Virus record (IMG/VR): IMGVR_UViG_2757320370_000005
Direction: 5' to 3' (one strand)
Source of the DNA: a virus
Lineage: Duplodnaviria > Caudoviricetes
Length of the DNA stretch: 64,000 nucleotides
Each line of letters opens with the position of its first letter. Within the stretch, counting starts at the first letter, position 1. The notes under the pieces are model-generated. The model saw nothing but the letters and a program-made list of their open reading frames with translations, was not told the DNA's origin and did no database searches. Positions 23,273-63,540 of this stretch are shown one piece after another. A program made the position numbers and the translations under genes.

Positions 23273-23624
23273 AATATGAAACCGCAAGAATATCCTCTAT
23301 CTTAATCCAATCCCAGTCGTCCTCGGACCAGCGCAGCTTGATCTGTCTCAGCTGCCGGTCTACGGACAACACAATGCCTTTGTACTGCGGCTCCTCAAAC
23401 GGGTCATACATCGTAATTGTAACCGGCACCCTCTCGTTAAGCGACAGCCTCAGCCCCCTCTCAATCTCAGCCAGTCTAAACTCGTCCAGCTCCGGCTTTA
23501 CGCGGCGGACCTGATTCCGCTCCTCGCTGATTATGCGCAGCTTGTGCTCTGGTATAATCATCCGGCTGCTCTCCCACAGTCCATTTCCTTCAAGCTTCCT
23601 GCGCTGTGGTGGTTTCAATATCAT
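23271..23624 (-). CDS. yolD: YolD-like protein
   Basis: LWESSRMIIPEH...KPELDE...WIKIEDIL. Confidence 0.88.
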   Translation of the reverse strand: MILKPPQRRKLEGNGLWESSRMIIPEHKLRIISEERNQVRRVKPELDEFRLAEIERGLRLSLNERVPVTITMYDPFEEPQYKGIVLSVDRQLRQIKLRWSEDDWDWIKIEDILAVSY

Positions 23625-23844
23625 CTACAACTCCCTTAATCACTCGTAAGGCCCTTGGCTTGTTGTGACCCCGCTGTATATATCCTTTGTACTCCAGTCG
23701 TTCCAATAGCCCATGTATGACTGCAGTCGAGCTTAGTCCTACCTCTTTCGCGAGTTCACGCAAGGTCGGCGGGTAATGGTCCCTGGCAACGATCATGATC
23801 AACGCCTCCAGGACTTCTTTTTCTTTATCTGTAATTGGCTTCAC
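23590..23844 (-). CDS. Stand-alone LexA-type winged-HTH DNA-binding domain
   Basis: YPPTLRELAKEVGLSSTAVIHGLLERLEYKGYIQR...PRAL; no peptidase domain. Confidence 0.88.
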   Translation of the reverse strand: MKPITDKEKEVLEALIMIVARDHYPPTLRELAKEVGLSSTAVIHGLLERLEYKGYIQRGHNKPRALRVIKGVVDDIETTTAQEA

Positions 23845-24038
23845 GCGATTGCTCCCTTCTTAATTAACTGCCAAGCGAGTATATTCGCCGCCAGGAACAA
23901 GCGCGGTGCGCCTGTAGTTATACATGTGGCCCGGATGCGACCGTTACGGATACCGTTTACCTCGATCTTACGCTGGGTGATCTCTCCGCTCTTTGCTTGA
24001 TATACAATTTCAATGGTTTGACCAATCTGCATTTGCAT
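23841..24038 (-). CDS. Small WYL-like domain protein
   Basis: IEIVYQAKSGEITQRKI...ATC...PRLF. Confidence 0.7.
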   Translation of the reverse strand: MQMQIGQTIEIVYQAKSGEITQRKIEVNGIRNGRIRATCITTGAPRLFLAANILAWQLIKKGAIA

Positions 24039-24057
24039 GTTGATTCCCTCCAAAATA

Positions 24058-24102
24058 AGAACGTTTGTTTGTATTATATGCGTGAAAGGGATTTTTAAGC
24101 AA
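24058..24102 (-). promoter_or_regulatory. SigA promoter with SOS (LexA) box for the WYL-lexA-yolD operon
   Basis: TTGCTT-18-TATAAT followed by the GAAC-N4-GTTT site at 24059-24070. Confidence 0.7.
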
Positions 24103-24239
24103 TGGAAAATAATTCTTCATGCTCTTATTTTGTTCGCTTCTCAATGAGTATCTTTTGTGCCATTATTAAATTACAGCAAGGGACACACGGATCACCAATA
24201 AGCCGGATATACCGGATGAGGGCGAGAGGATGAATTCAT

Positions 24240-24602
24240 ATGATGAACGTAAAAATTAACGGCACTGACAAAACTGCAACTCTGAGCATGTTCAATGATA
24301 ATACTGGAGTAGATTCTGTTGTAGACTTCGTTGGAAACTATGATGCTTTGGCCGATGGGAAGTTCGTTTACGACGATGAAACCGGTACATACAGTACCGA
24401 TCAAGATACCTTCGACTGGTGGGACAAAGTCATTACCGATAACAAGTTGCTCGAAGAACGCATTGCTGATTTGAAGGTCAAACACGATCCAGAAGCCGTT
24501 GACGAGGTTGTGCACGCCTCTGCTGATGTTGACTTAGAAGACATGGCGGCAGCCGTGAACAAGGCTCTGGACGAAGGATTCGAGGGTTCAGAGGGAAAGT
24601 AA
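24240..24602 (+). CDS. Small highly acidic protein; anti-CRISPR/anti-defence candidate
   Basis: About 24% D/E; first gene of an operon; ends G GGA AAG TAA. Confidence 0.75.
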   Translation: MMNVKINGTDKTATLSMFNDNTGVDSVVDFVGNYDALADGKFVYDDETGTYSTDQDTFDWWDKVITDNKLLEERIADLKVKHDPEAVDEVVHASADVDLEDMAAAVNKALDEGFEGSEGK

Positions 24603-24778
24603 CACCGCTCCTCGAATACGTAGATGTTCCCTGGGTGGCTAACCACCTGGAGAAGTCGCGCCGCAATGTAGATATTGCGGCAAAGCGAGCGCTGAATCCG
24701 AAATATCGCGGGTCATTCCTGCGCCCGGATGCAGTGGTCGAGGGGCGGCCCCTTTGGTTAAAGGATCGCTGGCTGTGA
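24599..24778 (+). CDS. Start-less 59-codon HTH-like ORF in the -1 frame of the acidic gene; not in the ORF track
   Basis: VTPLLEYVDVPWVANHLEKSRRNVDIAAKR...FLRPDAVVEGRPLW resembles AlpA/excisionase-type HTH; its TGA overlaps the next GTG start. Confidence 0.6.
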   Translation, partial: VTPLLEYVDVPWVANHLEKSRRNVDIAAKRALNPKYRGSFLRPDAVVEGRPLWLKDRWL

Positions 24779-25449
24779 ATAAGACGAGGAAACCCAGGAA
24801 GCTTAAATATACCAATCAACAAATACTGGACGCGATTCGTCACCAGTATCGCTTGCACGAAGATTGTTTAACATCTGATCAGTATAAGGATTCACGCCAA
24901 TTGCCTAATCTATCAACCGCTATTAAGCGGTTCGGATCTGTTAAGGCCGTATGGAAGGCAGCTGGCCTTAAAGTCCCTAAGAAAAAAACAAACTATGCAA
25001 GTAAACGGTATGTGAATTTCAAAACGATTTCTATAGAGGAATTGTTGGAGTTTTTACGCCATTCTCTTCTAACCATCGGGTATATCCCGTTGGCATTGGA
25101 TTACTCCAAGATGAAACAAAAACCACCACTCGCGGCCTTATCTAACCGGGGTCTGACATGGAGACAATCAGTGGAAAAGGCTGGATTCAGTTTCGATAAA
25201 TCCCGAGAGGCGGGAAAGCTAATCCCCTTGGATGAAGGATTTGCTAATTCCAGAAAATATCGTGACCGGGCAAGAAAGCAAAAACTTCGTGCAGAGCTTG
25301 TGCGTTTAGGGCGTTGCCCTCAATGCCGGAAGCCATGGGAAGAACCAAAACCAAATGGAAGAGGAAAAAAACCGGATCATTGTCGCCAATGTCAGATTTA
25401 TTACAAAGAAAGATATGAGGACAGACGGAGGAATGTAGATGAAAGCTAA
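24775..25449 (+). CDS. Protein with two HNH-associated repeats and a C-terminal zinc ribbon; no nuclease domain
   Basis: YTNQQILDAIR...PNLSTAIKRFGS...AAGL, second copy, CPQC...CRQC. Confidence 0.75.
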   Translation: MNKTRKPRKLKYTNQQILDAIRHQYRLHEDCLTSDQYKDSRQLPNLSTAIKRFGSVKAVWKAAGLKVPKKKTNYASKRYVNFKTISIEELLEFLRHSLLTIGYIPLALDYSKMKQKPPLAALSNRGLTWRQSVEKAGFSFDKSREAGKLIPLDEGFANSRKYRDRARKQKLRAELVRLGRCPQCRKPWEEPKPNGRGKKPDHCRQCQIYYKERYEDRRRNVDES

Positions 25450-25945
25450 TCATAGGTTATGCCCCATCTGCAACAACCCGTTGGGCCGTAACAAGAACTG
25501 TTGCTCCATGGCCTGCTATGCAGTGCATAAGTCTAATTTCAAACCCTGTGTAATTTGCCATAAGTCATTTCAAGCCCCGCCCAGCAGCTTAGCAGTCACC
25601 TGTAGCACGACGTGTTCCAAAGAGCACAGGCGGCGTTTGGCCGCAGACGGTGTTAACTCGGCTGCATTAGAAAAGGCTCACGCTGCCCAGCCCAGCAATC
25701 CGCTGACCGGACGGTTTGAGACGCATGTCAACGCTAAAGACTGGGTAATCCTCTCTCCAGATGGCACAGAGCACCGCTGCCGCAATCTAATGCTGTGGCT
25801 GCGGGAACACGCCGATCTGCTAGATGGGACCGTCATACAGGCATTTGACGGGTTTGCGAAGATGAAACAGACTGCGCTTGGAAAAAGGCCCAAAAACAAA
25901 AGCTATCAGTGGAGGGGTTGGAGGCTTAAAGATTGGGGCGATTAA
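25439..25945 (+). CDS. Cys-rich zinc-ribbon protein with homing-endonuclease-like DNA-binding C-terminus
   Basis: CPIC, CCSMAC, CVIC, CSTTC; ends YQWRGW; no HNH or GIY-YIG motif. Confidence 0.7.
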   Translation: MKANHRLCPICNNPLGRNKNCCSMACYAVHKSNFKPCVICHKSFQAPPSSLAVTCSTTCSKEHRRRLAADGVNSAALEKAHAAQPSNPLTGRFETHVNAKDWVILSPDGTEHRCRNLMLWLREHADLLDGTVIQAFDGFAKMKQTALGKRPKNKSYQWRGWRLKDWGD

Positions 25946-29064: not shown

Positions 29065-29180
29065 ATAAAAAGCCCACCGCCAGCATAATGCTAAGCGGTG
29101 GGCTTTGGTGTGTGTATCTGTTGCAATCCACACTCCTGCAAGAGGAGCGAATGCGCGTCCAGTGCTTCCGATCCGCGCAA
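29065..29180 (-). ncRNA. Small RNA with a solitary type I-C CRISPR-repeat-like unit (candidate Racr/crRNA-like RNA)
   Basis: Own promoter, 5' hairpin, repeat-like 32-mer, 13-nt linker and intrinsic terminator (29068-29106). Confidence 0.75.
29120..29151 (-). CRISPR. Solitary repeat unit TTCGCTCCTCTTGCAGGAGTGTGGATTGCAAC (not an array)
   Basis: 32 nt; 7-bp stem and 5-nt loop ending at nt 21, then an 11-nt TGGATTGCAAC tail; matches the recalled I-C pattern GTCGC...GCGTGGATTGAAAY. Confidence 0.8.
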
Positions 29181-29184
29181 GACC

Positions 29185-29213
29185 ATACTATCATCTTTGG
29201 GATGATATGTAAA
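29185..29213 (-). promoter_or_regulatory. SigA promoter of the sRNA with an operator-like palindrome in the spacer
   Basis: TTTACA-17-TAGTAT with extended TG; TATCATC-N5-GATGATA at 29189-29207. Confidence 0.75.
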
Positions 29214-61876: not shown

Positions 61877-62098
61877 ATGATTGAGAACAAATTAAGCGAG
61901 GTTATGGGACGAAAGCGTCTTAAAATCTCCGATGTCATTGAAATGACGGGATTGGCACGCAATACGATTGCTGATCTCTATCATGGTCGGGCCAAGCGCG
62001 TAGACCTGGAAACACTGGATAAGCTATGCAAGGCACTAGAATGCGAGAGTTTAAGCGAGATCGTGGAGTTCAGGCAGGAGGTCGATTACAAGTTATGA
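61877..62098 (+). CDS. Cro/C1-type HTH regulator coupled to the integrase
   Basis: TGLARNTIADLY...VDLETLDKLC; ATGA overlap with int. Confidence 0.88.
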   Translation: MIENKLSEVMGRKRLKISDVIEMTGLARNTIADLYHGRAKRVDLETLDKLCKALECESLSEIVEFRQEVDYKL

Positions 62099-63540
62099 GC
62101 AAGCGTATCGCGCTTTATATCCGTGTAAGTACCGATGAGCAGGCTATAAAGGGAAATTCTCTTAACGAGCAAGAAGAACGACTTCGTGCATATTGTCATG
62201 CCATGGAACTTGAAGGAGAGATCGAAACCTTTATAGACGATGGATATTCAGCTGGCAGTATGAAAAGACCGGCACTTACCAGAATGTTAAAGCTGGCCCG
62301 AAATAAGGAACTGAGCATGGTAGTCATTACAAAGATTGATCGCCTCTGCAGAAACCTCAAGGACCTTCTAACATTAGTGGATGAACTGGACGAGATACAG
62401 TGTGGATTTGCTTCTGCAGGGGAACGTTTTGATACATCAACTGCTGCAGGCCGAATGGTTTTGCAAATACTTGGAGCTTTCGCGGAATTCGAACGCGGAA
62501 GAAATCGGGAACGTGTACGAGAAAACATGATGTCCATTGTTACCAATACAGACAAAGCAGTCTCCCGTCCATGCTTCGGATATAATGTGAATGACTCAAA
62601 GTATATAATAAACGAGGAAGAAGCAGAGATCGTACGTAAAATGGTGGAATGGATGCTTCAAGGTGAAGGTGCTCACAAGGTTATGAGAAGGCTGAATGAT
62701 ATGGGCGTGAAGACCAAGGATGGTAAGTCCTTCACCCAACTCTCGGTGGGCAAGCTAATGAAAAGAGAAACCATAGCGGGTATGTTTGTCTACAATCGCG
62801 GATATACACTTCGCGGGAAGAGTCTTATACGCCCTAAAGAGGAATGGATTGTGATTGAAGAACATCATGAGCCCATTATTGATATTGATACTTTCAAACG
62901 CCTACAGATTGCAATCGAAGCTAGGAGAACAAGCGGAAAGCAAGCGGATAATGAACGATGGTTACTTACAGGCATAGTCAAATGCACACACTGTGGGCGT
63001 CCTATGTTCGGACGTTACAAAAAAAAGCCAAGCGGAAGAGAATACTTTCATTACGTCTGCTCAAGTTACATGAAACGAGCAGAGTGTTTCCATCACTTTA
63101 TTGATAGAGATCTCCTAGAAAACACTGTTCTTGACCACATAAACGAATCAGATAAATTCAGCGTAAAAAGCGAAGAAATAGTTTCGACTGAAGATTCGGA
63201 CGTGATTAGCATCTCGCATTTAAAGAATGCTCTTAAAAGACTGGACAATAAAATGCAAAGGCAAATTGAATTATTCGAAGACAGCGAAATTAATAAAGAT
63301 GATTTTAGAAGAGCACGGGATCGAATTCAAAGTGAGCGACTTGTAATTGAAGAACAACTTAAATATGCTGAAGCAGGGACAAGGGATGCATTGGAAAAGG
63401 ACTTTATTAGACGTGTTGGTTCACTAAAAAATGAACTATCATCACGTAATCGAGGTGAACAGAAAAACGCTATCCGCCAGCTTGTCAAAACAGTGGAAGT
63501 TACAAATGCGTCTTCGATTCACATAGAAGTTCGTCTGTAA
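62095..63540 (+). CDS. Large serine recombinase (phage integrase)
   Basis: YIRVSTDEQ, DDGYSAGSMKRP, KIDRLCR, recombinase domain, CTHC zinc ribbon, coiled coil. Confidence 0.97.
   Translation: MSKRIALYIRVSTDEQAIKGNSLNEQEERLRAYCHAMELEGEIETFIDDGYSAGSMKRPALTRMLKLARNKELSMVVITKIDRLCRNLKDLLTLVDELDEIQCGFASAGERFDTSTAAGRMVLQILGAFAEFERGRNRERVRENMMSIVTNTDKAVSRPCFGYNVNDSKYIINEEEAEIVRKMVEWMLQGEGAHKVMRRLNDMGVKTKDGKSFTQLSVGKLMKRETIAGMFVYNRGYTLRGKSLIRPKEEWIVIEEHHEPIIDIDTFKRLQIAIEARRTSGKQADNERWLLTGIVKCTHCGRPMFGRYKKKPSGREYFHYVCSSYMKRAECFHHFIDRDLLENTVLDHINESDKFSVKSEEIVSTEDSDVISISHLKNALKRLDNKMQRQIELFEDSEINKDDFRRARDRIQSERLVIEEQLKYAEAGTRDALEKDFIRRVGSLKNELSSRNRGEQKNAIRQLVKTVEVTNASSIHIEVRL

What the first reader, a model, noticed from the sequence alone, without database searches (positions are those of the whole stretch)
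24591..24778. Acidic protein can gain a C-terminal HTH by -1 frameshift at G GGA AAG
Seen: the last codons read GAG GGA AAG TAA, and the heptamer G GGA AAG (24593-24599) is the lambda G/T slippery sequence. The -1 frame continues 59 codons of AlpA/excisionase-like HTH with no ATG/GTG/TTG since the previous in-frame stop. Its TGA overlaps the GTG of the next gene, implying it is translated. Hairpins lie downstream (GGTGG-CTAA-CCACC; GCCGCAAT-N6-ATTGCGGC). Inference: one gene may give a free effector plus a minor effector-HTH fusion autoregulator, as in Acr-Aca fusions. Alternative: an ancestral GTGA start/stop overlap mutated to GTAA and inactivated a separate HTH gene.
Basis: partly seen in the sequence, partly recalled or inferred. 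Interest (0 to 1): 0.7.

Follow-up and report, generated by a model that had tools for sequence, protein, structure and literature searches.

The report
Frameshift links effector genes to regulator
A small acidic prophage protein gene ends in a ribosome-slipping signal that most likely lets a fraction of ribosomes add a DNA-binding domain, and the same signal-plus-domain cassette follows at least 14 unrelated small genes in prophage regions of Bacilli, which I found described nowhere.

Summary
ORF 24240-24602 (120 aa, pI about 4.1) ends GAG GGA AAG TAA. The -1 frame is open from 24533 to 24778 and has no ATG, GTG or TTG before 24635.

Comparative data strongly support a programmed -1 frameshift:
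- **Same gene family.** Five further distinct loci of the acidic family (27-54% identity in the -1 peptide) keep G_GGA_AAG or G_GGA_AAC, an immediately adjacent stop, and a startless homologous -1 domain. Eight family members without the domain lack the heptamer.
- **Natural fusion.** One relative, P0017, encodes the two parts as a single in-frame protein.
- **Wider survey.** Searching with the domain found 32 loci of this layout in five families of Bacilli. They sit behind 14 unrelated small, mostly acidic ORF families.
- **Sharp boundary.** Sequence conservation and -1-frame codon periodicity begin exactly at the heptamer.

The added domain is a MerR/excisionase-type winged helix (AF2 pLDDT 91.6; BldC Z 6.2, RdfS Z 5.2). 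The acidic domain models confidently (pLDDT 95) but matches no known fold or family.

I infer that termination yields the free effector, and a rare slip at a "shifty stop" yields an effector-HTH fusion acting as an Aca-like autoregulator. No protein-level evidence exists, and the effector's function is unknown.

The parts
24203..24215 (+). Leader hairpin CCGG-ATATA-CCGG inside a conserved 5' leader (consensus AAGCCGGAGAnACCGGATGAGGnCGAAAGG), just upstream of the ribosome-binding site
   Evidence: The same leader precedes ORFs of several different families in 16 loci. The 4-bp stem is paired in 100% of cells and two pairs show compensatory changes (CCGC/GCGG, CCAC/GTGG). No Rfam family matches.
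24240..24602 (+). Zero-frame gene for the 120-aa acidic protein (pI about 4.1, 24% D+E), the presumed major product released at TAA 24600-24602
   Evidence: ORF and translation. Large unnamed family: 804 representatives at E<=1e-3. AF2 pLDDT 95.1. No Pfam, PHROG or PDB match.
24593..24599 (+). Slippery heptamer G_GGA_AAG in X_XXY_YYZ register
   Evidence: Sequence. The block GGGAAA[G/C]TA[A/G] is invariant in six diverged loci of the same gene family. Shift-prone heptamers sit at the same place in 32 loci.
24600..24602 (+). Zero-frame stop TAA immediately 3' of the heptamer ('shifty stop')
   Evidence: The stop directly follows the heptamer in all 32 loci of this layout.
24599..24778 (+). -1-frame extension of 59 codons plus TGA, encoding a MerR/excisionase-type winged helix-turn-helix with no start codon of its own before GTG 24635
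   Evidence: frame and starts. (homologous peptides align from the first residue after the slip). (AF2 pLDDT 91.6, beta-alpha-alpha-beta-beta). (BldC Z 6.2, RdfS Z 5.2, Xis proteins Z 4.2-4.6).
24240..24778 (+). Coding span of the predicted 179-aa trans-frame fusion (residues 1-120 from frame 0, then 59 from frame -1; junction ...SEGK|VTPLLEY...)
   Evidence: Inferred from the parts above. A colinear natural in-frame fusion is P0017: residues 1-116 match the acidic protein at 44% identity (E 2e-34) and residues 121-174 match the -1 peptide at 46% identity (E 7e-16).
24634..24681 (+).
   Evidence: They start 35 and 61 nt after the heptamer. The 101-nt downstream fold has z = -3.2 here, but the structures are not conserved among relatives.
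24775..25449 (+). Next gene (HNH-endonuclease-associated repeat protein); its likely GTG start overlaps the TGA of the -1 ORF, with AAAGGA 9 nt upstream
   Evidence: PF18780, 26.7 bits.

Best explanation
Gene 24240-24602 and the startless ORF behind it form one recoding unit.

Most ribosomes terminate at TAA 24600 and release the 120-aa acidic protein. A minority slip back one base on G_GGA_AAG while the stop codon is next in line (a 'shifty stop'). They then read GTA ACA CCG... and make a 179-aa protein in which the acidic domain carries a C-terminal MerR/excisionase-type winged-helix DNA-binding domain.

This unit is one copy of a modular cassette found in prophage accessory regions of Bacilli:
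- a conserved promoter, often palindromic;
- a conserved leader hairpin;
- a freely exchangeable small acidic gene;
- a shift site plus stop;
- the conserved HTH.

Inferred function: the HTH-bearing product is a transcription regulator of the cassette, made at a fixed low ratio to the effector, like Aca repressors of anti-CRISPR operons. The variable acidic proteins would then be anti-defence-type effectors.

What is shown: the sequence layout, its conservation, the fold of the HTH and the natural in-frame fusions. What is inferred: that slipping occurs, its efficiency, DNA binding, autoregulation and the effector function.

The confidence given covers the frameshift-fusion claim. I put the regulatory and anti-defence part at about 0.45.
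For: 1. Register and open frame in the window.

2. Within the acidic family, five further distinct loci (L003, L004, L005=L008, L009, L019; 27-54% identity in the -1 peptide) all read N_NNG GGA AA[G/C] TA[A/G]. A homologous HTH follows in -1, and no start codon precedes the domain. In L009 the last residue changes from K to N while the X_XXY_YYZ pattern is kept.

3. Eight family members with no downstream -1 HTH (L010-L018) lack any such heptamer.

4. P0017 is a natural in-frame fusion of both parts. Other in-frame fusions of the same HTH to other N-domains are P0156-P0173 and L026, L048-L051.

5. The HTH-centred survey:
- 54 of 401 Paenibacillaceae genomes hit.
- 23 of 30 loci examined have this layout (a 24th, L034, is ambiguous).
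- 5 more occur in four other Bacilli families.
- In all there are 32 loci behind 14 BLASTP-unrelated upstream ORF families.
- Every upstream ORF ends exactly at heptamer plus stop: GGGAAAC x10, GGGAAAG x9, GGTAAAG x5, GGGGGAG x4, AAAAAAG x2, TTTAAAG, GTCAAAG.
- The background rate of such ORF ends is 2% (11 of 562).

6. Per-base entropy is 1.4-2.0 bits upstream and falls at the heptamer. Downstream it is 3-periodic in the -1 frame (codon positions 0.64 / 0.71 / 1.46 bits).

7. Stand-alone HTH proteins with real ATG starts begin before the IPPL segment, so that segment belongs to the domain.

8. G_GGA_AAG is highly shift-prone in E. coli. A_AAG is the minimal -1 site and is used in Bacillus cdd (PMC5009743).

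9. HTH fold.

10. For function:
- The upstream ORFs are 58-240 aa, mostly pI 4.1-4.5, with no usable Pfam or PHROG match.
- Promoters of relatives lie in 18-21-nt inverted repeats.
- The same HTH is fused to Cas8c C-terminal (Cas11c-region) fragments.
Against: There is no protein, ribosome-profiling or RNA evidence; no sequencing run was listed.

No conserved stimulatory RNA structure lies 5-9 nt downstream.

This host has tRNA-Lys(CUU) x2 besides tRNA-Lys(UUU) x4, which should lower slippage at AAG compared with E. coli.

GGTAAAG, GTCAAAG and GGGGGAG are not canonical X_XXY_YYZ heptamers.

The 'GK' end is also a protein-level motif:
- L007 ends G_GGA_AAA TAA with no HTH.
- In-frame fusions read GK[VL]IPPL.

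Some relatives give the HTH its own start (L031, L039 and L061 by GTGA overlap; L045 and P0190-P0212 by ATG), so the fusion is not obligatory for HTH function.

The window's own promoter lacks the palindromes seen in relatives, and its HTH is among the more divergent copies. Autoregulation and an anti-defence role are untested.
Confidence: 0.78

Rival explanations
1. The HTH is translated independently, from the internal GTG 24635 (47 aa) or from a non-canonical start or reinitiation event after termination at TAA. No frameshift and no fusion occur.
For: GTG 24635 exists. Some relatives do have a GTGA stop/start overlap or an ATG (L031, L039, L045, L061). A few subtype-B loci have GTG, TTG or ATG 21-27 nt into the domain.
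Against: A start at 24635 removes the conserved first 12 residues (GKVxPPLEYV...), which are under -1-frame purifying selection in 32 loci. Stand-alone homologues with real starts include that segment. The first in-frame start lies at a different place in every locus, 35-99 nt into the domain, or is missing. No conserved alternative start codon or suitably spaced SD is present. G-ending heptamers are followed by TGA, which would create a GTG start, in only 1 of 22 cases against 5 of 10 for C-ending ones.
Confidence: 0.1
2. The -1 ORF is a dead remnant. A separate HTH gene lost its start (GTGA to GTAA), or the acidic-HTH fusion was broken by an indel, and only the acidic protein is functional.
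For: L007 shows that the acidic gene can stand alone, with a G_GGA_AAA TAA end followed by a terminator. Many family members have no HTH.
Against: The same 'break' at the same nucleotide recurs in 32 loci behind 14 unrelated genes in five bacterial families. The ORFs are intact and full length, and substitutions concentrate at third codon positions of the -1 frame. AF2 folds the window's peptide confidently.
Confidence: 0.03
3. The frame break is a sequencing or assembly error, or the shift happens at the RNA level by polymerase slippage.
For: Homopolymer-adjacent indels are common errors.
Against: Independent assemblies, viral contigs and metagenomes all show the same arrangement. The runs are only 3 nt long (GGG, AAA), far below what transcriptional slippage needs. 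The in-frame fusion P0017 has a different junction sequence.
Confidence: 0.02
4. The frameshift is real, but the HTH product is an excisionase or recombination directionality factor, or another DNA-architectural protein of the prophage, and not a transcriptional autoregulator. The upstream genes are unrelated passengers.
For: The best structural matches include RdfS, Pukovnik Xis, Tn916 Xis and the GIsul2 excisionase. RdfS-type proteins both excise and regulate (PMC11963761).
Against: The cassette is not next to an integrase: the serine recombinase of the neighbouring prophage is about 38 kb away at 62026-63540. In L009 it lies between yolD/umuC-like and lysis genes. Promoter palindromes and the variable-gene-plus-conserved-HTH layout resemble regulator cassettes.
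Confidence: 0.12

Closest known systems
Phage lambda G / G-T tail assembly chaperones (programmed -1 frameshift at G_GGA_AAG) and their relatives in tailed phages
   Same: Identical slippery heptamer. The site lies near the end of the upstream ORF. A minor C-terminally extended product accompanies a major short one. [quoted passage not shown]
   Different: The proteins and genomic context differ: this is not between tail genes and a tape measure. The extension is a DNA-binding domain. The zero-frame stop directly abuts the heptamer. The same 3' module follows 14 unrelated 5' genes.
Anti-CRISPR operons with Aca repressors, and in-frame Acr-HTH fusions such as AcrIIA1 (the latter from my own knowledge; Aca repression: PMC9410906, abstract seen)
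   Same: Variable, small, acidic upstream genes of unknown family are coupled to a conserved HTH. Promoters lie in inverted repeats (relatives). The location is in prophage accessory regions. Fusions of the same HTH to Cas8c-derived fragments exist.
   Different: Here the HTH has no start codon and is reached by recoding, so the regulator is made only as a sub-stoichiometric fusion. The HTH is of MerR/Xis type. No inhibition of any defence system has been shown. Homology to numbered Aca families was not tested.
FseA of ICEMlSymR7A (msi172-msi171), a transcriptional activator made by programmed ribosomal frameshifting on a mobile element (PMC11963761)
   Same: A mobile-element regulator whose synthesis depends on a ribosomal frameshift joining two ORFs, which limits regulator dosage.
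   Different: According to Ramsay et al. 2015 (my own knowledge; not checked here) the FseA shift is +1. It is a single dedicated gene pair, with no free functional upstream product family and no modular reuse.
Bacillus subtilis cdd (A_CGA_AAG) and IS1222 (G_CGA_AAG) -1 frameshifting; 'shifty stop' sites of Weiss et al. 1987 (PMC5009743)
   Same: A single-tRNA A_AAG slip works in Bacilli. This accounts for the GGTAAAG and GTCAAAG variants, and a 3' stop can act as a stimulator.
   Different: The cdd shift is regarded as incidental. Here the site is conserved across 32 loci and joins two folded domains.
BldC and small MerR/excisionase winged-helix proteins (PDB 6amk, 8dgl, 4j2n, 1y6u)
   Same: Same fold: BldC Z 6.2, rmsd 1.4 A over 46 residues; RdfS Z 5.2.
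   Different: There is no significant sequence similarity. Pfam HTH_17 stays below its cut-off (17.8-26.7 bits against 27). The domain has a distinctive N-terminal G-K-x-I-P-P-L segment.

Membership tests
Programmed -1 ribosomal frameshift site | Shift-prone heptamer X_XXY_YYZ (or Z_ZZN tetramer) in the zero-frame register | tested here: met
   G_GGA_AAG at 24593-24599 in register. All 32 related loci carry GGGAAAG, GGGAAAC, AAAAAAG, TTTAAAG, NNNAAAG or GGGGGAG at that place.
Programmed -1 ribosomal frameshift site | A -1 ORF that overlaps the site, is long and open, and cannot be initiated on its own | tested here: met
   The frame is open from 24533 to 24778 and the first start codon is at 24635, inside the domain. 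The same holds for most relatives.
Programmed -1 ribosomal frameshift site | Conservation of the site, at the nucleotide level, among diverged homologues, and its loss where the -1 ORF is absent | tested here: met
   Background frequency is 2% against 23 of 30 observed. The one exception is L007 (G_GGA_AAA TAA, no HTH).
Programmed -1 ribosomal frameshift site | Stimulatory element: a downstream structure 5-9 nt away, an upstream SD-like sequence, or an adjacent stop | tested here: inconclusive
   The adjacent zero-frame stop is present in 32 of 32 loci. Four of six downstream regions fold better than shuffles (z -2.3 to -3.2), but no shared structure emerges. An upstream SD-like sequence is not consistent.
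Programmed -1 ribosomal frameshift site | Detection of the trans-frame protein | not testable with these tools
   No sequencing run was listed and there are no proteomic data. Natural in-frame fusions (P0017 and others) show only that the fused architecture is viable.
HTH_17 / MerR-excisionase winged helix (PF12728-like) | Match to the Pfam model at or above the gathering score | tested here: not met
   The window peptide gives no hit. Relatives score 17.8-26.7 bits against a cut-off of 27. Precomputed PF12728 marks are listed on a few relatives.
HTH_17 / MerR-excisionase winged helix (PF12728-like) | beta-alpha-alpha-beta-beta winged-helix fold superposable on solved members | tested here: met
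   AF2 pLDDT 91.6 with elements E9-10, H12-19, H23-33, E47-49, E52-56. BldC Z 6.2 at 1.4 A, RdfS Z 5.2, BmrR 4.7, Xis proteins 4.2-4.6. The Foldseek top hits are also MerR, RacA and BmrR, but with E above 0.1.
Acr-Aca type anti-defence operon | Variable small upstream gene(s) followed by a conserved HTH gene in mobile elements | tested here: met
   14 unrelated upstream families, 58-240 aa and mostly pI 4.1-4.5, all before one HTH family.
Acr-Aca type anti-defence operon | Promoter with inverted repeats bound by the HTH (autorepression) | tested here: inconclusive
   Inverted repeats of 18-21 nt span the promoters of L009, L025 and L033, and GGTTGT-N-ACAACC overlaps the -35 in subtype-A loci. 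The window itself has none beyond a 7-nt AT-rich pair. Binding was not testable.
Acr-Aca type anti-defence operon | Demonstrated inhibition of CRISPR-Cas or another defence system, or homology to a known Acr or Aca | not tested
   No Acr or Aca library was available. Pfam and PHROGs gave nothing usable. The only pointers are indirect: HTH fusions to Cas_Csd1 C-terminal fragments and an earlier scan note of a solitary type I-C repeat at 29065-29213.
Lambda-type tail assembly chaperone G/GT | Gene pair between the major tail protein and tape-measure genes; the extension binds the tape measure | tested here: not met
   The neighbours are LexA-DBD, YolD-like, Ltp and HNH-repeat genes. The extension is a winged helix.

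The most novel reading that the evidence does not exclude
The HTH module carries its own 5' recoding signal (shift-prone heptamer plus stop). Together with a conserved promoter and leader, it forms a plug-in expression cassette. Any small effector gene recombined between the two conserved flanks is then automatically made in two forms: a free effector, and a rare effector-repressor fusion that shuts the cassette down. This would be a new, widespread use of -1 frameshifting in prophages of Bacilli. It would also give a practical handle for finding unknown anti-defence proteins by guilt by association with a frameshift-linked HTH.
Probability: 0.45. Interest if true: 0.88.

Novelty: new variant of a known kind. 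Interest (0 to 1): 0.8.

Why it matters
Programmed -1 frameshifting in bacteria and phages is documented for a handful of gene classes: dnaX, IS transposases, tail chaperones and a few capsid decorations.

A conserved shifty-stop site that grafts one DNA-binding module onto at least 14 unrelated small proteins would be a new functional class. It would also be a clean natural system for studying stop-adjacent -1 slippage in Gram-positive bacteria.

Gene callers currently miss or mis-start these HTH ORFs. The databases hold versions with spurious N-termini read from the wrong frame of the upstream gene.

If the cassette is an anti-defence unit, the frameshift-linked HTH becomes a search handle for many uncharacterised effector families. 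It would also show how phages hard-wire an effector-to-repressor ratio at the level of translation.

Tried and rejected
Loci came from the search for related loci and the genome search instead.
- **First genome-contig scan** with the single protein found nothing.
- **No public sequencing run was listed**, so expression, RNA-level indels and reads across the junction could not be examined.
- **Family and fold searches for the acidic protein** gave nothing usable: Pfam, PHROGs, ESM Atlas, Foldseek against PDB and BFVD, VIA-align wide and a PDB sequence search. The best Z was 5.4, on generic helical matches.
- **Rfam** found nothing in 23900-24900.
- **A conserved frameshift-stimulating structure** was sought and not found.
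- **A mixed alignment to fold the P0017 fusion** misaligned the HTH rows and was abandoned. The window's own two parts were folded separately.
- **Literature searches** for a frameshift-linked Aca, HTH or anti-defence cassette returned nothing relevant. This is not proof of absence, since subscription journals are not covered.
- **Rejected readings:** tail-chaperone G/GT (wrong context), transcriptional slippage (runs of only 3 nt), sequencing error (recurs in independent data sets) and pseudogene (purifying selection).
Full report
**1. The observation.** The + strand ORF 24240-24602 encodes a 120-aa acidic protein and ends GAG GGA AAG TAA. The heptamer G_GGA_AAG occupies 24593-24599 in the X_XXY_YYZ register.

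The -1 frame is open from 24533 to TGA 24776-24778. It contains no ATG, GTG or TTG before GTG 24635, so 59 codons follow the slip point. The two hairpins and the TGA/GTG overlap with the next ORF are as described.

Alone, the 10-mer GGGAAAGTAR is unremarkable. It occurs once, against 0.31 expected, and 25 of 100 shuffles have at least one.

**2. Relatives of the acidic gene.** Word-based search found three close homologues, all ending ...GK. DNA loci came from genomes, IMG/VR and metagenomes.

- **Loci with a homologous -1 peptide.** In the window and in the five further distinct loci L003, L004, L005=L008, L009 and L019, the upstream gene ends N_NNG GGA AA[G/C] TA[A/G].
  - No start codon precedes the domain. 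The first in-frame start falls 35-99 nt inside it, at a different place each time.
  - The block GGGAAA[G/C]TA[A/G] is invariant while the flanks have diverged.
  - In L009 the last residue is N, not K (G_GGA_AAC), so the slippery pattern is kept and not merely a 'GK' terminus.
- **Loci without a -1 HTH.** Eight family members (L010-L018) end in unrelated sequences.
- **The exception.** L007 ends G_GGA_AAA TAA, followed by a terminator-like hairpin and no HTH.

**3. A natural in-frame fusion.** A profile search of 1.84 billion representatives shows that the acidic domain is a large unnamed family, with 804 hits at E<=1e-3 and many different C-terminal extensions.

One member, P0017 (183 aa), is colinear with the predicted fusion:
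- Residues 1-116 match the acidic protein at 44% identity (E 2e-34).
- Residues 121-174 match the window's -1 peptide at 46% identity (E 7e-16).
- The junction sequence is different and non-slippery.

Among the 154 proteins then in hand (150 listed hits plus earlier ones), 'GK' is the commonest C-terminal dipeptide: 12 cases, against 5 or fewer for any other.

**4. The survey centred on the HTH.** A profile of the -1 peptides hit 54 of 401 Paenibacillaceae genomes. Of the 30 loci returned, classed by script:
- 23 have the window's layout (a 24th, L034, is ambiguous).
- 4 are in-frame fusions.
- 2 have their own start: one a GTGA stop/start overlap, one an ATG.

A sample of 400 other genomes of the class added five more loci of the frameshift layout, in four other families. 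It also added further in-frame fusions and stand-alone forms.

Across the 32 loci of this layout:
- The upstream ORFs fall into 14 BLASTP-unrelated clusters.
- They are 58-240 aa, mostly pI 4.1-4.5. They have no Pfam match and one marginal PHROG match of unknown function.
- In every case the upstream ORF ends exactly at heptamer plus stop: GGGAAAC x10, GGGAAAG x9, GGTAAAG x5, GGGGGAG x4, AAAAAAG x2, TTTAAAG and GTCAAAG.
- Only 2% of ORF ends in the window fit such patterns (11 of 562).
- Per-base entropy is 1.4-2.0 bits upstream and collapses at the heptamer. Downstream it is 3-periodic in the -1 frame (0.64 / 0.71 / 1.46 bits for codon positions 1 / 2 / 3). Homology and purifying selection on the -1 frame therefore start at the shift site.
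- G-ending heptamers are followed by TGA, which would create a GTG start, in 1 of 22 cases. C-ending ones are in 5 of 10 (Fisher p = 0.006). The loci are related, and I filed GTGA loci separately, so this is suggestive only.

Database entries for these HTH ORFs often carry spurious N-termini read from the -1 frame of the upstream gene. Genuine stand-alone homologues start just before the IPPL segment.

**5. What the two parts are.**
- **The -1 peptide.** It folds with pLDDT 91.6 as beta-alpha-alpha-beta-beta. VIA-align ranks BldC first (Z 6.2, 1.4 A over 46 residues). Next come RdfS excisionase (5.2), BmrR (4.7), Pukovnik Xis (4.6), a P2 DNA-binding protein (4.5) and Tn916 Xis (4.2). The Foldseek top hits are likewise RacA, MerR and BmrR, though with E above 0.1. 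Pfam HTH_17 stays just below its cut-off in relatives and is absent for the window's copy. I read this as a MerR/excisionase-type winged helix at the fold level, not as a certified Pfam member.
- **The acidic protein.** It folds with pLDDT 95.1 as a small beta-sheet with a short helix, followed by three long helices. It has no convincing structural or sequence match.

**6. The likely mechanism (inference).** The universal feature is a stop codon directly after the shift-prone codons. This fits the 'shifty stop' idea: slow termination gives the peptidyl-tRNA on AAG, AAC or GAG time to re-pair one base back (AAA or GGA), with GGA to GGG re-pairing at the preceding site. GUA, CUA or CUG is then read as Val or Leu.

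- G_GGA_AAG is among the most shift-prone heptamers in E. coli. A_AAG is the minimal -1 site and works in Bacillus cdd (PMC5009743).
- The host has tRNA-Gly(UCC) and no tRNA-Gly(CCC). It has both tRNA-Lys(UUU) x4 and tRNA-Lys(CUU) x2, so efficiency is probably modest.
- No conserved downstream structure was found.

**7. Cassette anatomy and context.** Sixteen loci, with ORFs of several families, share a 5' leader. It has a 4-bp hairpin that is 100% paired and shows compensatory changes in two pairs; in the window it lies at 24203-24215.

Many also share promoter architecture. In relatives the promoter lies in 18-21-nt inverted repeats, or GGTTGT-N-ACAACC overlaps the -35. The window's own promoter lacks these.

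The window's cassette lies in a prophage accessory stretch:
- Upstream are a CI-like repressor, LytTR, Ltp superinfection exclusion, YolD-like and LexA-DBD genes.
- Downstream are HNH-repeat, zinc-ribbon, ligase and RES genes.

In L009 the cassette lies between yolD/umuC-like genes and the lysis genes.

The same HTH also occurs at the C-terminus of other small domains. These include fragments matching the last 100 or so positions of Cas8c/Csd1 (29.5-32.1 bits against a cut-off of 27).

**8. Function (inference).** The layout of variable small acidic genes, a conserved HTH and palindromic promoters in mobile elements mirrors acr-aca operons. There, Aca represses the acr promoter (PMC9410906).

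I propose that the fusion is the cassette's regulator, produced at a fixed low ratio to the effector. The facts that the HTH also works with its own start, or as a permanent fusion, in some relatives agree with a dosage-setting role for the frameshift. An excisionase-like role is the main functional rival.

**9. Comparison with what is known.** The heptamer is that of lambda G/GT, but the proteins and context differ. FseA of an ICE is a regulator made by frameshifting (PMC11963761), but it is a single dedicated gene pair. In-frame Acr-HTH fusions are known, as I recall.

I found no description of a frameshift-linked HTH cassette. Earlier notes of this scan hold none on other DNA.

**10. Verdict.** A programmed -1 frameshift is very likely, at about 0.8. 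The regulatory and anti-defence reading is plausible, at about 0.45. The case is a new variant of a known kind, with broad reach.

Noticed in passing
window 24160-24239 (hairpin 24203-24215); also L003, L005, L015, L019, L024, L025, L028-L030, L033, L036, L041, L043, L046, L050: A conserved 5' leader (...ACAGCAAGGGACA...AACAAG-CCGG-N5-CCGG-ATGAGGnCGAAAGG...) precedes small ORFs of several unrelated families. Its 4-bp stem is always paired and shows compensatory changes (CCGC/GCGG, CCAC/GTGG). No Rfam family matches. It could be an mRNA-stabilising or regulatory hairpin, or a recombination flank.
   Followed up: partly
proteins P0161, P0162, P0167, P0170, P0173: Proteins of about 160 aa combine an N-terminal part matching the last 100 or so positions of Cas8c/Csd1 (the Cas11c small-subunit region; PF09709, 29.5-32.1 bits) with the same C-terminal HTH. 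They are candidate Cas-mimic anti-CRISPRs of type I-C with a built-in regulator.
   Followed up: partly
L007:1200-1560 (- strand): An acidic-family gene ends G_GGA_AAA TAA and is followed directly by a terminator-like hairpin and no HTH. It may be a remnant of a cassette that lost its HTH.
   Followed up: partly
L010:462-1166 (protein P0155): Where the acidic gene lacks the frameshift site, the next gene (a multi-zinc-ribbon protein starting at a TAATG overlap) carries the same HTH in frame at its own C-terminus. The window's downstream genes 24775-25945 are also zinc-ribbon and HNH-repeat proteins.
   Followed up: no
L025:1237-1277, L033:1968-2014, L009:2886-2936: The cassette promoters of relatives sit inside 18-21-nt inverted repeats that include the -35 hexamer. 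Subtype-A loci instead have GGTTGT-N-ACAACC and 11-12-nt-spaced GTTC[GC] direct repeats. All look operator-like. The window's promoter lacks them.
   Followed up: partly
32 loci, 10-mers listed: Heptamers ending in G are almost never followed by TGA (1 of 22), whereas those ending in C often are (5 of 10). This is as if a GTG start in the -1 frame were avoided.
   Followed up: partly
window 24240-24602 and family (alignment A6, model m70b339bcf90d): The acidic family has 804 representatives. It models at pLDDT 95 yet matches no PDB or BFVD fold. Its members carry at least a dozen different C-terminal extensions (for example P0014, P0015, P0024), so the domain is a promiscuous N-terminal module.
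   Followed up: partly
window 23590-24053 (- strand): Divergent from the cassette lie a 70-aa ORF (phrog_6785), an 84-aa protein that is only a LexA DNA-binding domain (PF01726, 65.8 bits) without a protease domain, and a YolD-like gene. Together they look like an SOS-type module whose relation to the cassette promoter is unexplored.
   Followed up: no
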